Position numbers and translations under genes: made by a program. Positions 18,641 to 23,951 of a stretch of 64,000 nt of DNA are shown piece by piece. The first letter of the stretch is position 1; each line of letters begins with the position of its first letter. Source of the DNA: Eledone cirrhosa (lineage: Eukaryota); the NCBI GenBank assembly GCA_964016885.1, contig OZ024746.1, positions 36,332,001 through 36,396,000 on the forward strand. Direction: 5' to 3'. The notes under the pieces were generated by a model. That model saw only the letters and a list, made by a program, of their open reading frames with translations, was not told the origin of the DNA and did no database searches.

Positions 18641-21308
18641 ATATATATATATATTATTTAGTCTTCACATTTATATATATTATTTAATCTTCACATATAT
18701 TATATTATATTATATATATATATATATATATATATATATAAATATATATATACACCAATATATATGTATATATATATATATATATATATAAATATATATA
18801 TATATATATATATATACATATATATATATATATATAAATATATATGTATATATATATATATATATATATATATATATGTATATATATATATATATATATA
18901 TATATTCATATATATTGGTGTGTATATGGATATGTATATTTGATAGGAGTGCTTAAACAAAATATATGTCTTTAGATTTTAAATCAAAAGTATGGTGCAA
19001 ATAACTACTATTGTTTAAACATTATGTTGAGTTTCACACCAGACTGCTTCACTTAACATTGATACGATCTTCATAGGGCATCATTGGACTGAAGTGTAAT
19101 ATATGTGTGAGGAAATGTTTTGAAGAAAATGTTTTTATAACACACACTCAAATGAACCAATCGACAGTAAAACTGTTGACAGAGATTCATTAGAAAATCT
19201 ACGCAATAACAATCGTATGAAACATGCAAACACCTCATCACCTTTCAGTAGAAATATAAATGTAGCATGGAACTGATGCAACACGGTCGTTAAATAATAA
19301 TAATAAAACAAGAAGAAACATATATTTAGATAGAATAATATGTAAAAACAATGTAATTGAATAAACAAAAATTAAATTATTTTAGCTAAAATGTAGAATG
19401 GTATTCCCAATTCAGAAGTTCGTAACATTCGTGATATTAGAAAGAAGCTTCATTTAACACGTACTGTCACGTAAATATAAATCTCACATTTATAATTTTG
19501 TTTCAATATAACATGTTTTTCTTCTCGTTAAAATGTACTTTTTTTTTAGATGAGTTAGTGGGTGCGTGCGATTATGGAGATATTTCAATATGTAAAACAG
19601 AAAGTTACTTTCATACACGGTGTACATTCAAAAGTATCTAGAATGTAGAAAGTAACAGAAATAGATATTCACCCCTGTTACATAACAGACATAATTTAAA
19701 TATCTGATGTTTTCTTATTTTATCGTTACTTACACTTGGAGCAATTATGATCCAGATAGTTATAAGCACATTGATATAAGACATCGAAAATTCATTAAGC
19801 AACATATTTTTGATGGCGTGGATTGTAATTTGATTGCGATTTTAATGCTATTTATGAGAGACCAAGCAATTGTATGTAGGTCTAAATACATGTAATATTT
19901 GAGAGTTCAGGAATCTAGGATCATACAAGTTCTTATATATGCATACGGTCATATATATAATCATAATATTAATTAGAGTAAGTTTTACTCATTTGCTAGA
20001 TATTCTTTCGTTCAATGCAGATCTCTTACATAGTTACAGTTTTATTTACAAACGAAATAATTTAAGGATTTAAGGTATTTAATAGGTGATAATTGTTTCT
20101 ACTCATGTTATGCTGCATTTAGAAAATCATTTTATTTAATGATTTACCATTCATGAGTATAGACCTTGGGTGTCAATTATTAATGCTGACCGACAACAAA
20201 TGGAACGCAGACATATTTATATGTTACGGTAAGAACATCTACCATTTTGAAAACTGCGAATATTGAACATATGCTGACTGACGACATATCGTACGCTACA
20301 AAATTGTAATATTGTATTGATTTTAAAACTAGTGATATCACCACCACCACCACCACCAACATGTCGAATATTTTAGACATCTAAATATGTCTTCAAACTT
20401 TCGCAATAAAGGATATCAAGACAACGTATGATTGTTTTTTGACGGAGATACTAATAACGAAAAAAAAAGCAAGTATTATTGGCATGTTCATTGGAATTCT
20501 ATAAAGAAATGTAACTGCAAACAACAAATGTTTTGATGTATTGATAAAATGGAATATATGATCTTGTAAGAATTTGTGACAAATGTATTGATATGAATGT
20601 TCATATATTGACGTGTATATCTATAACTTTCTCTCTCTCTCTCTGTCTGTCTGTCTCTCTCTCTCTCTCTCTCTCTCTATCTATCTCTCTCTCTCTCTCT
20701 CTCTCTCTCTCTTTCTCTCTCTCTCTCGGTCTCTTCCTCTCTCTGTATATATTTATTTTAAATAAATATATATATATATGCATATATACATATATATATA
20801 TGTATATAAATGTATATACATATATATGTATATATATATATATATATATATATATATATATATATATATATATATATATATATATATATATATATATATA
20901 TATTTATATATATATATAAAGGTTATCATAAACATAAAATTAAAGATATATATATGTTGCAACTCTTCACTTTTAAGCTCAATGAAGAATTAATAAATTA
21001 AAATCAAAAAATCAGAGCATTATATCATAAATCATGTCTATAGAATCATCAGATATTAAAATATATACTATTTCTTCTTCTAATTAGCATAATTAACCAT
21101 ATACAAAATCAAATCTAGCACGCTTTAAGAATAATTTTCTTATGGGGAAATCTCCGACAAACAATTGATCGTAGCCTCTTCGCGGCAGGCCCGTTCCATT
21201 ATTTATTCAACATTTCGGCAGCATGCAGAATCCGACCGAGTATACCATCAACCGCACACAATTAGTAGTACAATTAAACTTAGAACAAATGCGCACATAC
21301 CGTAATTA

Positions 21309-21387
21309 TATCTCTACCATGGTTTCTTCCTTATTTAGGACATCCAAATAATATGAATTATCCAGAGTTAGGATTCGTCAGGAGATA
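21309..21387 (-). ncRNA. Putative type I hammerhead ribozyme (family D)
   Basis: Minus strand reads TATCTC-CTGACGA-A-TCCT...AGGA-A-GAAA-CCATGG-TA-GAGATA: 6-bp stem I, palindromic stem III ACCATGGT, GUA triplet. Confidence 0.75.
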
Positions 21388-22347
21388 AACTCAAAATCAG
21401 ACATTTAGTTTTTCTAACCGATCGCGCCAAATTTAGATTCAAAAATGGCTAAAATCGCTATGTAGCTGTGTACCAGCCAGAGAGAAAGCGTGTGATTGGT
21501 TGCTTACGGCTGGTAGGCTTGCTGCTAGAAAGCGCAGCCATATATCGCCAAATTTAATCTCAACCAATTGGGAGATTATTAAATATAAAGGTTATCATAT
21601 ACATACAATTAAAGATATATATATGATGCAACTGTTCACTTTTAAGCTCAATGAAGAATTAATAAATTAAAATCAAAAAATCAGAGCATTATATCATAAA
21701 TCATGTCTATAGAATCATCAGATATTAAAATATATACTATTTATTCTTCTAATTAGCATAATTAACCATATACAAAATCAAATCTAGCACGCTTTAAGAA
21801 TAAATTTTCTTATGGGTAAATCTCCGACAAACAATTGATCGTAGCCTCTTCTGCATGCTGCCGAAATGTTGGATAAATAATGGAACGGGGCTGCCGCGAA
21901 GAGGCTACGATCAATTGTTTGTCGGAGATTTACCAATAAGAACATTTATTCTTAAAGCGTGCTAGATTCGATTTTGTATATTGTTAATTATGCTAATTAG
22001 AAGAAGAAATAGTATATATTTTAATATCTGATGATTTATGATATAATGCTCTGAATTTTTTATTTTAATTTATTAATTCTTCACTGAGCTTAAAAGTGAA
22101 CAGTTGCAACATATATATATCTTTAATTTTATGTATATGATAACCTTTATATTTAATAATCTCCCAATTGGTTGAGATTAAATTTGGCGATATATGGCTG
22201 CGCTTCCTAGCAGCAAGCCTACCCGCCGTAAGCAACCAATCACACGCTTTTTCTCTGGCTGGTACACAGCTACATAGCGATTTTAGCCATTTTTGAATCT
22301 AAATTTGGCGCGATCGGTTAGAAAAACTAAATGTCTGATTTTGAGTT

Positions 22348-22426
22348 TATCTCCTGAAGAATCCTAACTCTGGATAATTCATATTATTTGGATGTCCTAA
22401 ATAAGGAAGAAACCATGGTAGATATA
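22348..22426 (+). ncRNA. Putative type I hammerhead ribozyme (family D, inverted copy)
   Basis: TATCTC-CTGAAGA-A-TCCT...AGGA-A-GAAA-CCATGG-TA-GATATA. Variable N7 differs from the other copy; one stem I mismatch. Confidence 0.7.
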
Positions 22427-23951
22427 TAATTACGGTATGTGCTCATTTCTTCTAAGTTTAATTTTACTACTAATTGTGTGTGGTTGATGGTATACTTGGT
22501 CGGATTCTTCATGCTGCCGAAATGTTGGATAAATAATGGAACGGGGCTGCCGCGAAGAGGCTGCGATCAATTGTTTGTCGGAGATTTCCCCATAAGAAAA
22601 ATAATTCTTAAAGCGTGCTAGATTTGATTTTGTATATGGTTAATTATGCTAATTAGAAGAAGAAATAGTATATATTTTAATATCTGATGATTCTATAGAC
22701 ATGATTTATGATATATATATATATATATATATATATATATATATATATATATATATATATATATATATATATATATATATATATATATATATATATATAT
22801 ATATATATATATATATATATATATATATATATATATATATACATATATATATATATATATATATATGCGTGTGTGGGCGTGTGAGTTTGTGTGAATACAA
22901 ATATATACGTGATGTGGTGATCCAGATGCCCAATAGATGCATTTGGGAATTAACATGCATCTCATTTAATTCTCCTGCTTTAAACCTACTAACTTTCAAC
23001 CTGATTTCTTTTTTTTTCAGTTATGATTAAATAAAATTCCTCATGTTGAACAACTCGAATATCTGTTCCATACGATATGGATGTTTGCCTATTTTTTGGA
23101 AACGTTTTCGCTACCATAATCATAATCCTCATTATAGTTATCATCAACATCATTATCATTATATTCATCTTCATCAACACCATCTTGTTATAATCATCAT
23201 TTTCATCATCATCATCATCAAATCATATCCGTCTTCGTCACTGTCTTCGTCATTATCATTATCATACTTTTTTTGTATTTGAAGAAGTCCATGATGCATT
23301 ACCATAATTGAAAAAGCAACGTTAATATTTTGAGGTCGGATCTTTACTTCGCAGAGAATGTCATAATACGGTTCCTCAAATTAAATTGAAAAGAAATATT
23401 TGATTACAGAGGAATGTTATGTTTTAAGATATGTGGGAATGAGGGTGGAAGTGACAAAAATAGTACCTTAACAATTTACAGCGGCTGTTGTAGCAGTAAA
23501 ATTCTCAAAATTGTGTGTGTATTGCTCTATTCCAATTTTGTGCTTCCTGATATTTAAATCGGTTTTTTTCTTGATAACTATTTGTATTTTAAAGTGGTCA
23601 AAGTGCTTCACTCATTGCCCTCAAGAAGGGATACCCAACGATTTGATTTTAACTAGAGGTGACACGACAGACCAGTGAGAAACATCATGTCACGTGACAT
23701 CGCCTAGGACTGGAGTCCAAATTTTGAAAATAACGTTCTGTTCCACTCACAGCACTATCAGTAACACCATTACATGCATAACGAATTTGACTACCGTCGA
23801 CGAAATTATAACACTAGAAATTTCTGATTTTACGAGCGTCCACACCACCACAAAAAAAAAAAGCTAAAATAAAATGAACGCAGCAAAAAATAACAGCACT
23901 AATAGAAATACTACCACTATCTCACTCGTTATCATTATTACAACCAACAAT

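What the first reader, a model, noticed from the sequence alone, without database searches (positions are those of the whole stretch)
20918..22710. Family D: young tandem-plus-inverted 669-bp units with dimer-type hammerheads on both strands
Seen: 1.4 units in one orientation, then ~1.3 units inverted, at high identity, with no ORF. The hammerhead has a perfect 6-bp stem I and a core varying only at the free N7 position (CUGACGA versus CUGAAGA). Stem III is the palindrome ACCATGGT. An A.A apposition closes stem II, as in family A. Inference: a recently active non-autonomous retrozyme-like element with a unit larger than typical metazoan retrozymes. A.A at 10.1-11.1 recurs in two families.
Basis: partly seen in the sequence, partly recalled or inferred. 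Interest (0 to 1): 0.72.

Follow-up and report, generated by a model that had tools for sequence, protein, structure and literature searches.

The report
Penelope-type ribozyme repeat, head-to-head insertion
A non-coding jumping element carrying a self-cleaving hammerhead ribozyme has inserted as two head-to-head pieces into a TA microsatellite, the usual layout of Penelope-like retrotransposons, with only a small twist in the ribozyme stem.

Summary
A 1.40-unit left arm and a 1.29-unit right arm of a 669/670-bp unit sit head-to-head, are 96.9% identical, are joined by a 3-nt microhomology, and both outer ends run into (TA)n. Each arm has one type I hammerhead with a palindromic stem III. Corrections: stem I is perfect only in the left copy; each arm holds one ribozyme, so this locus cannot release a 669-nt monomer or circle; no second A·A family was found in the window. 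Public reads show a diverse multi-copy family, majority core CUGAUGA, and a recurrent (TA)n junction at the right arm's end. The arms have diverged with the same mutation spectrum as neighbouring repeats, which argues against an assembly artefact. Partial tandem, 5' inverted copy, one-sided tail and (TA)n target are all published Penelope-like element (PLE) features, and a neighbouring PLE family shows the same layout. Mismatched closure of stem II is known (U·U in 14 of 25 Hydra-clade families); A·A was in none of those 25. Units up to 972 bp are reported. Verdict: new family of non-autonomous PLE (non-LTR retrozyme); cleavage and expression untested.

The parts
20918..21851 (-). Left arm, 934 nt = 1.40 units; RNA sense is the minus strand; 537 nt before and 397 nt after the predicted cleavage site; 3' end runs into (TA)n with 5 nt of TA-like overlap
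21309..21387 (-). Left type I hammerhead: stem I 6/6, core CUGACGA, stem II 4 bp with A·A at its base and a 38-nt loop, GAAA, palindrome ACCAUGGU, predicted cleavage after A17 at 21315
20918..21025 (-). 108-nt 3' extension present on the left arm end only (PLE 'tail' analogue)
21849..21851 (.). Inversion junction: 3-nt microhomology TTC shared by both arms
21852..21897 (+). 46-nt spacer of the palindrome; contiguous unit sequence that belongs to the right arm
21849..22710 (+). Right arm, 862 nt = 1.29 units (14-nt internal deletion near 22031); 290 nt after the predicted cleavage site; 3' end runs into (TA)n at the site where family reads also meet (TA)n
22348..22426 (+). Right type I hammerhead: stem I 5/6 (C·U mismatch), core CUGAAGA, same stems II and III, predicted cleavage after A17 at 22420; probably decayed
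20746..20918 (.). Left (TA)n tract, target microsatellite
22711..22866 (.). Right (TA)n tract, target microsatellite

Best explanation
One insertion of a non-autonomous Penelope-like element (non-LTR retrozyme type). The 669-bp unit is a pseudo-LTR-like module without an ORF, with a type I hammerhead built to cleave as a dimer. A multimeric transcript from a tandem source locus elsewhere was bound in trans by the RT-endonuclease of a (TA)n-targeting PLE. Inferred steps: the enzyme cut both strands of a (TA)n tract; each strand primed reverse transcription at one of two internal sites, 290 and 397 nt downstream of the ribozyme; both cDNAs ran through an uncleaved hammerhead and stopped within 49 nt of each other; their 3' ends were joined through TTC/GAA microhomology. 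That gives two 5'-truncated arms head-to-head with a tail on one end. The copy has since decayed by about 1.5% per arm. SHOWN: anatomy, junctions, family membership, recurrent short 3' end. INFERRED: mobilisation by a PLE, two-strand priming, dimer cleavage. The class assignment is about 0.85 likely; two-strand priming as the cause of the inversion about 0.55; a family ribozyme that cleaves as a dimer about 0.65.
For: Architecture matches published PLE insertions: partial tandem, inverted 5'-truncated copy at the 5' end, tail at one end, (TA)n targets (PMC8557442 passages; Penelope-13_HM has an inverted copy and ribozymes on both strands). An anole PLE protein cleaves and extends both target strands and starts at two internal RNA sites that define the tail, and uncleaved RNA is the main template (PMC11167929). 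In-window control: a neighbouring family whose copy at 17100-18640 has an endonuclease remnant with CxC..., CxxC and CxH motifs as described for the Hydra clade has three two-armed insertions, and 3 of 3 carry one short end (reference 7707-7716) and one long end (7790-7793). Family reads: 119 reads in run X6 continue into (TA)n before 21021, the right arm's end, which is not an AATT site; summed contig depth in X1 rises from 22,784 to 139,539 at that bin (not a copy number). Both outer ends have 5 nt of TA-like overlap, found at 16 of 670 unit positions. The unconstrained homodimer minimum of the isolated left 101-nt ribozyme is the double hammerhead with an 8-bp stem III, -43.6 kcal/mol against 2 x -15.0. 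The two inner partial units share one base that the two outer ones lack, as expected if both arms copied the same multimer.
Against: No autonomous partner was found: the unit has no blastn similarity to other elements in the window and no genome was available. The long 3' end was not seen as recurrent among the loose ends shown (24 shown, 254 not shown). The locus junction was not among the joints in 4 of 4 runs laid (two RAD-seq runs and two contig sets, none known to be this individual). In full-arm context the folding model gives stem I probability 0.0 in both arms, and the right ribozyme does not fold as a hammerhead even as an isolated dimer. The anole PLE started at sites without homology to the target, whereas both ends here have TA-like overlap. 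The tail is 108 nt, against 30-40 nt in print. The shared inner allele is a single site of 147 four-way columns and could be homoplasy or conversion. In the 2026 survey only 1 of 9 Xenopus dimers cleaved in vitro.
Confidence: 0.8

Rival explanations
1. Same element, but the tandem arms come from rolling reverse transcription around a 669-nt circular RNA made by double hammerhead cleavage and ligation (the retrozyme model), not from an uncleaved linear multimer.
For: Both arms exceed one unit and cross the cleavage site intact; circles are shown for coral, mussel and axolotl retrozymes; the circularised unit folds somewhat better than shuffles, z = -2.8 on 25 shuffles.
Against: Copies from one monomer circle should be star-like, yet inner and outer partial units split at one site (Li-Lo 3, Li-Ri 4, Lo-Ro 2, Ri-Ro 7 differences in 147 columns). 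An anole PLE uses uncleaved RNA. No RNA data were available.
Confidence: 0.25
2. The inversion is a fold-back event: one cDNA or nascent DNA strand snapped back at the TTC/GAA microhomology and copied itself, during or after insertion.
For: The two 5' ends lie only 49 nt apart and the microhomology fits a hairpin with a 46-nt loop; other palindromes in the window have 5-20 nt spacers; the shared inner allele fits too.
Against: The spacer belongs to the right arm, so the left arm would be its copy, yet the left arm is 108 nt longer at the outer end. A later deletion could explain that, but the right end coincides with the family's recurrent end, and the neighbouring PLE family shows the one-short-one-long pattern in 3 of 3 cases, two of them with little or no overlap between arms.
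Confidence: 0.2
3. The element spreads as described but its hammerhead is dead or irrelevant: A·A at the base of stem II is a tolerated loss in a family that no longer needs cleavage.
For: G10.1-C11.1 is highly conserved in PLE ribozymes; A·A is in 0 of 25 Hydra-clade families; ribozyme mutants do not block PLE insertion in vitro; stem I is sequestered in full-arm folds.
Against: Of the 40 best-supported variant rows shown for family reads, the 5 inside the ribozyme fall at N7, loop II (2), a G·U-compatible stem I site and the outermost stem II pair; none is in the invariant core, the palindrome or the two As (191 rows not shown; weak, roughly 1 in 7 by chance on my estimate). U·U closure cleaves in the axolotl.
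Confidence: 0.3
4. The arms are 5'-truncated ends (pseudo-LTRs) of an autonomous PLE, not of a non-autonomous family.
For: PLE insertions are heavily 5'-truncated and often consist of pseudo-LTR only.
Against: Each arm runs more than once round the 669-bp unit with no ORF, and contig pieces of organism B tile the whole circle, though with overlaps under the tool's 31-letter bridging rule. The loose ends shown at 21055, 21175 and 21483 resemble diverged unit sequence by eye, not coding sequence.
Confidence: 0.07
5. Assembly or read fold-back artefact.
For: Palindromes between microsatellites are hard to assemble; the junction was not seen in reads.
Against: Arms differ by 25 substitutions and a 14-nt deletion with the same transversion-rich spectrum as other repeats in the window (8 ts/17 tv against 44/88, Fisher p = 1.0); the flanks beyond the TA tracts are not inverted copies; at five sites the right arm carries the family majority base and the left a private one.
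Confidence: 0.03

Closest known systems
Non-LTR retrozymes of metazoans (Cervera and de la Pena 2020, PMC7229834; Li et al. 2026, 10.64898/2026.07.22.740005)
   Same: Non-coding head-to-tail unit with a type I hammerhead, low GC (34%), no LTR/PBS/PPT, short palindromic stem III of the dimer type; proposed to be non-autonomous PLE derivatives.
   Different: Unit longer than the 170-400 nt invertebrate circles, though within 51-972 bp. This locus has one ribozyme per arm. A·A rather than G-C or U·U at the base of stem II; 38-nt loop II. Expression and circles untested.
Penelope-like elements, (TA)n-targeting clades (Hydra, Neptune, Naiad; Craig et al. 2021, PMC8557442)
   Same: Partial tandem, inverted 5'-truncated copy, tail on one end, (TA)n target, ribozymes on both strands (Penelope-13_HM). 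Hydra-clade ribozymes often have a mismatch closing stem II; the Octopus bimaculoides Hydra-1 ribozyme has a stem III one base longer than this one (by-eye comparison).
   Different: No RT-EN ORF. Ends lie 290 and 397 nt past the ribozyme, further than in the Hydra consensus ends I read. Tail 108 nt. The mobilising clade is not established.
PLE minimal hammerheads (Cervera and de la Pena 2014, PMC4209133)
   Same: Type I, palindromic 15.2-16.2/loop 3, predicted dimer, an unpaired base after A9; pairs on opposite strands 100-700 bp apart were noted in Schistosoma.
   Different: Lacks the highly conserved G10.1-C11.1. It can also be drawn as extra A, U10.1-A11.1 and a bulged A, 3.8 kcal/mol worse in the model.
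L1 twin priming (recalled; only a search listing seen)
   Same: Head-to-head 5' inversion joined by microhomology after priming from both target strands.
   Different: No poly(A) tail, no visible target-site duplication, and the two arms overlap almost fully rather than abutting.

Membership tests
Non-LTR retrozyme | Head-to-tail unit with no coding capacity | tested here: met
   669/670-bp period; longest stop-free stretch 77 codons
Non-LTR retrozyme | Type I hammerhead in the unit | tested here: met
   0 hits in 100 shuffles; no Rfam match at gathering score
Non-LTR retrozyme | [quoted passage not shown] | tested here: not met
   One ribozyme per arm, on opposite strands. Applies to this locus; other loci could not be examined
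Non-LTR retrozyme | Self-cleavage, in dimers | not testable with these tools
   Folding only: isolated left dimer favours the double hammerhead; full arms sequester stem I
Non-LTR retrozyme | Monomeric linear and circular RNA in vivo | not testable with these tools
   No RNA run could be laid
Non-LTR retrozyme | Multi-copy dispersed family | tested here: met
   966, 27, 2226 and 1900 records laid from 4 of 4 runs, spread over 85-100% identity, two organisms
Penelope-like element (autonomous) | ORF with telomerase-like RT and GIY-YIG endonuclease | tested here: not met
Penelope-like element (insertion signature) | Partial tandem plus inverted 5'-truncated copy | tested here: met
   definition
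Penelope-like element (insertion signature) | Fixed internal 3' ends with a tail on one end | tested here: inconclusive
   Short end recurrent in reads; long end seen only at this locus; tail 108 nt against 30-40 nt in print
Penelope-like element (insertion signature) | (TA)n target as in Hydra, Neptune and Naiad clades | tested here: met
Penelope-like element (non-autonomous partner) | Sequence shared with the pseudo-LTR of an autonomous PLE of the same genome | tested here: inconclusive
   No similarity to PLE remnants within the window; genome not held
Canonical hammerhead | G10.1-C11.1 closing pair | tested here: not met
   A·A (or U-A with a bulge) in both copies; no majority variant at these positions among the 40 read-variant rows shown, 191 not shown

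The most novel reading that the evidence does not exclude
The family keeps a working dimer hammerhead closed by a purine-purine A·A apposition at the base of stem II, a state absent from the 25 tabulated Hydra-clade ribozymes; and its two-armed copies are fossils of one multimeric RNA copied twice from the two strands of a (TA)n break, one start site per strand, both cDNAs ending near the same RNA 5' end. A genome-wide count of arm ends and inner/outer alleles would then test directly how PLE inversions and tails arise.
Probability: 0.3. Interest if true: 0.5.

Novelty: new member of a known kind. Interest (0 to 1): 0.27.

Why it matters
The origin of the tandem/inverted structure and tail of Penelope-like elements is described in print as still undefined (PMC8557442). 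This genome seems rich in short two-armed insertions with sharp (TA)n boundaries, so it could supply a clean count of which 3' end each arm uses and whether the arms copy the same RNA. An A·A-closed hammerhead that cleaves would widen hammerhead search descriptors a little. The element itself is an ordinary kind of repeat. A read-through transcript would form an ~800-bp near-perfect hairpin (central 600 nt: -338.9 kcal/mol), a possible substrate for RNA editing or small-RNA silencing; that is inference only.

Tried and rejected
No whole genome is held, so no copy number, permutation count or partner search was possible. Rfam, gathering threshold: 0 matches in the window. Run search: no RNA holder listed. 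Of these 136 loci, 133 were re-matched by my script and 0 had stems I, II and a palindrome; none of the 15 metagenome loci matched the unit by blastn: chance matches. Read ends and heterogeneous loose ends at 21085, 21094, 21133, 21263, 21304, 21430 and 21554 first looked like element ends but sit on AATT sites, and the starts at 21222/21225 on a GCATGC site: RAD library artefacts, rejected. The 'goes back 669' joint in 4 of 4 runs only shows continuity across the arbitrary edge of the stretch laid and is not independent proof of tandem arrays. The transversion excess between arms was considered as a sign of sequencing error and rejected. An apparent inversion at 18400 was a match to the left arm of the 5715 palindrome; that copy is single-armed. 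The neighbouring endonuclease remnant (P0001) gave no hit in two protein searches or Pfam; its Hydra-clade label rests on motif match to the paper's definition and by-eye comparison. No stable stem-loop at either 3' end (z 0.03 and -0.49). Earlier scan notes: 3 look-ups, nothing shown. Literature on A·A: searches 'hammerhead G10.1 C11.1' and 'hammerhead variants Penelope A-A mismatch' (0 occurrences of the last term in the 20 papers listed of 30) found no report. The paper most likely to hold one, Lunse et al. 2016 on PLE hammerhead variants (PMC5785218), is not held, and the supplements of PMC4209133, PMC7229834 and the 2026 preprint were not seen, so A·A may already be in print.
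Full report
Setting. The window is AT-rich, microsatellite-rich animal-type DNA full of repeats. No whole genome is held, so all family-level evidence comes from one laying of public runs.

The observation. Between two (TA)n tracts (20746-20918 and 22711-22866) lie a left arm, 20918-21851, and a right arm, 21849-22710, inverted to each other. The left arm is 1.40 units of a 669/670-bp period; the right is 1.29 units, with a 14-nt deletion that shortens its period to 656. The arms match at 792 of 817 aligned bases. There is no ORF. 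Each arm has one type I hammerhead: core at 21381 on the minus strand (CUGACGA) and at 22354 on the plus strand (CUGAAGA), stem III the palindrome ACCAUGGU, cleavage triplet GUA with A17 at 21315 and 22420. The motif appeared 0 times in 100 locally shuffled windows. Rfam does not pick it up. Two statements need correction. Stem I is perfect only on the left; the right copy has a C·U mismatch. And I found no second A·A family: the only other intact hammerheads, in the 472-bp array at 1250-2359, have an extra base followed by G10.1-C11.1.

Anatomy in RNA sense. The arms are head-to-head: 5' ends meet in the middle and 3' ends face outward. The junction has a 3-nt microhomology (TTC, 21849-21851), and the 46-nt spacer is contiguous sequence of the right arm, so the two 5' ends are 49 nt apart. 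The 3' ends lie 397 nt (left) and 290 nt (right) past the cleavage site. Both stop at a 5-nt TA-like word and run into (TA)n; such words occur at 16 of 670 unit positions. The left end therefore carries a 108-nt extension that the right lacks. Because each arm has one ribozyme and the two are on opposite strands, this locus cannot release a monomer or form a cis dimer.

Is it real? The arms differ by 8 transitions and 17 transversions. Four other repeat pairs in the window give 44 and 88 (Fisher p = 1.0), so this is the local mutation spectrum. At 21189, 21207, 21238, 21271 and 21286 the right arm has the base that most family reads carry and the left has a private one. The flanks beyond the TA tracts are not mirrored. 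An artefact is unlikely, although the junction itself was not seen in the 4 runs laid, none known to be this individual.

The family. The run search listed 7 runs, 4 holding part of the stretch. I laid 4 of the 7 on one unit (20972-21641) at 85% likeness: 966 contigs (X1), 27 contigs (X4, a second organism), 2226 and 1900 RAD reads (X5, X6). Only 55 of 2226 and 60 of 1900 reads were 99% alike or more, so the family is diverse and this copy is not its consensus. Most reads have N7 = U (246 of 258 at 21377 in X5 and X6), so both window copies differ from the majority at the free position. No majority change is listed at the two As, the palindrome or the invariant core among the 40 variant rows shown (191 not shown), so A·A is probably a family trait. 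In X6, 119 reads run into (TA)n before 21021, the right arm's end, and X1 summed depth jumps sixfold there. That is the pattern of a fixed 3' end with 5' truncation. Other apparent ends fall on AATT or GCATGC sites and are library artefacts. The long end was not among the 24 loose ends shown (254 not shown).

The ribozyme. For the isolated 101-nt left motif the unconstrained homodimer minimum is the double hammerhead, with 6-bp stems I, 4-bp stems II and an 8-bp intermolecular stem III (-43.6 kcal/mol against -15.0 per monomer). The right motif prefers another fold even as a dimer. Against activity: in whole-arm folds stem I has probability 0.0 in both arms. The base of stem II can be drawn as A·A, or as an extra A, a U-A pair and a bulge, 3.8 kcal/mol worse. 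G10.1-C11.1 is highly conserved in PLE ribozymes (PMC4209133, parts 1-2 of 4 read). But by my count of File S2 of PMC8557442, 14 of 25 Hydra-clade families close stem II with U·U, 1 with U·C, 7 with G-C, 2 with G·U, 1 with A-U after an extra G, and 0 with A·A; two of the U·U entries are identical. An axolotl retrozyme with U·U there cleaves, better as a dimer (PMC7229834, parts 2-4 of 6 read). So a mismatch at this place is known and A·A is at most a new flavour. The paper on PLE hammerhead variants most likely to list it was not held.

Neighbours as a control. The copy at 17100-18640 has decayed RT-thumb and GIY-YIG-type coding sequence with CxC..., CxxC and CxH motifs as described for Hydra-clade PLEs; database searches with it were blank, so the label rests on motifs and by-eye comparison. 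Its family has three two-armed insertions between (TA)n tracts (5715-7793, 14873-14971, 45142-45320). In 3 of 3, one arm ends at reference 7707-7716 and the other at 7790-7793. Family D shares no detectable sequence with it but has the same layout.

Mechanism. Craig et al. (PMC8557442; passages, section 11 and supplement parts 1, 2, 52, 53 of 59 read) describe partial tandems, an inverted 5'-truncated copy, a one-sided tail and (TA)n targets for PLEs. Frangieh et al. (PMC11167929, parts 1-2 of 4 and passages) show that a PLE protein cuts and extends both target strands, starts at two internal RNA sites that define the tail, and uses uncleaved RNA. I infer that a PLE enzyme acting in trans primed one cDNA from each strand of a (TA)n break, at +290 and +397, on a multimeric RNA, and that the cDNA ends were joined by microhomology. 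Near-coincident 5' ends and one base shared by the two inner partial units (one site in 147 columns) would follow if both copied the same molecule; this is weak evidence. Fold-back is disfavoured because the arm without the spacer is the longer one. Rolling copy of a circle is not excluded. Differences from the anole element: TA-like overlap at both ends and a longer tail.

Comparison and verdict. It works like, and by most testable features belongs to, the non-LTR retrozymes, which a 2026 preprint (10.64898/2026.07.22.740005, parts 1-3 of 5 read) treats as non-autonomous PLE derivatives with units of 51-972 bp. This locus fails that paper's two-ribozyme criterion for an active copy and is best seen as a dispersed, decaying insertion. 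It is not an autonomous PLE. Passages only were seen of PMC6765202, PMC11300833 and PMC2837043; L1 twin priming is recalled, with only a search listing seen. New member of a known kind; interest 0.27. What remains worth a look is the A·A closure and the use of two-armed copies to test how PLE inversions form.

Noticed in passing
window 17100-18640 (+): 5'-truncated, decayed PLE with RT-thumb and GIY-YIG-type remnants and motifs matching the Hydra-clade description, followed by a long 3' region ending at (TA)n.
   Followed up: partly
window 5715-7793; 14873-14971; 45142-45320: Three head-to-head insertions of that PLE family in (TA)n; each has one short and one long 3' end about 80 nt apart. 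A decayed hammerhead-like stretch follows the endonuclease stop in three copies.
   Followed up: partly
window 1250-2359 (-): 2.4 copies of a 472-bp unit between TA runs with two hammerheads (cores 1555, 2027), extra base plus G10.1-C11.1, and a 14-nt palindromic stem III that is broken in the second copy. Unlike family D it has two ribozymes in tandem.
   Followed up: partly
window 36-893 and 15097-15313: 1.4 copies of a 627-bp unit between TA runs, with a 72% relative at 15097; it holds CUGAUGA at 332 but no matching GAAA and stem III was found.
   Followed up: partly
window 994-1214 and 15376-15500: Short near-perfect palindromes with 5-nt spacers; arms 90% and 80% alike.
   Followed up: no
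window 21427-21571 (-), mirrored in the right arm: GC-richer stretch 113-257 nt upstream of the cleavage site with TTTGGCGC, TTTGAA and CCAAT words; these resemble E2F, CHR and CCAAT promoter motifs (recalled, not tested against chance).
   Followed up: no
window repeats generally: Diverged repeat copies show twice as many transversions as transitions, mostly G/T and C/A.
   Followed up: partly
window 35678-39103 (-); 26973-28247; 33772-35507: Non-LTR retrotransposon with an 841-aa RT reading frame (RVT_1 E = 1.4e-22) and several truncated copies.
   Followed up: no
window 41428-42312: About 880-bp element with ~50-bp terminal inverted repeats flanked by TA and a decayed transposase-like interior; looks like a Tc1/mariner relic by eye.
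   Followed up: no
window 2972-3093, 5408-5621, 23934-24145, 43682-43868, 56521-56744, 61833-62056 and others: A dispersed ~190-bp SINE-like family with more than ten copies.
   Followed up: no
window 39645-40299: Direct 329-bp duplication, 2.2% diverged.
   Followed up: no
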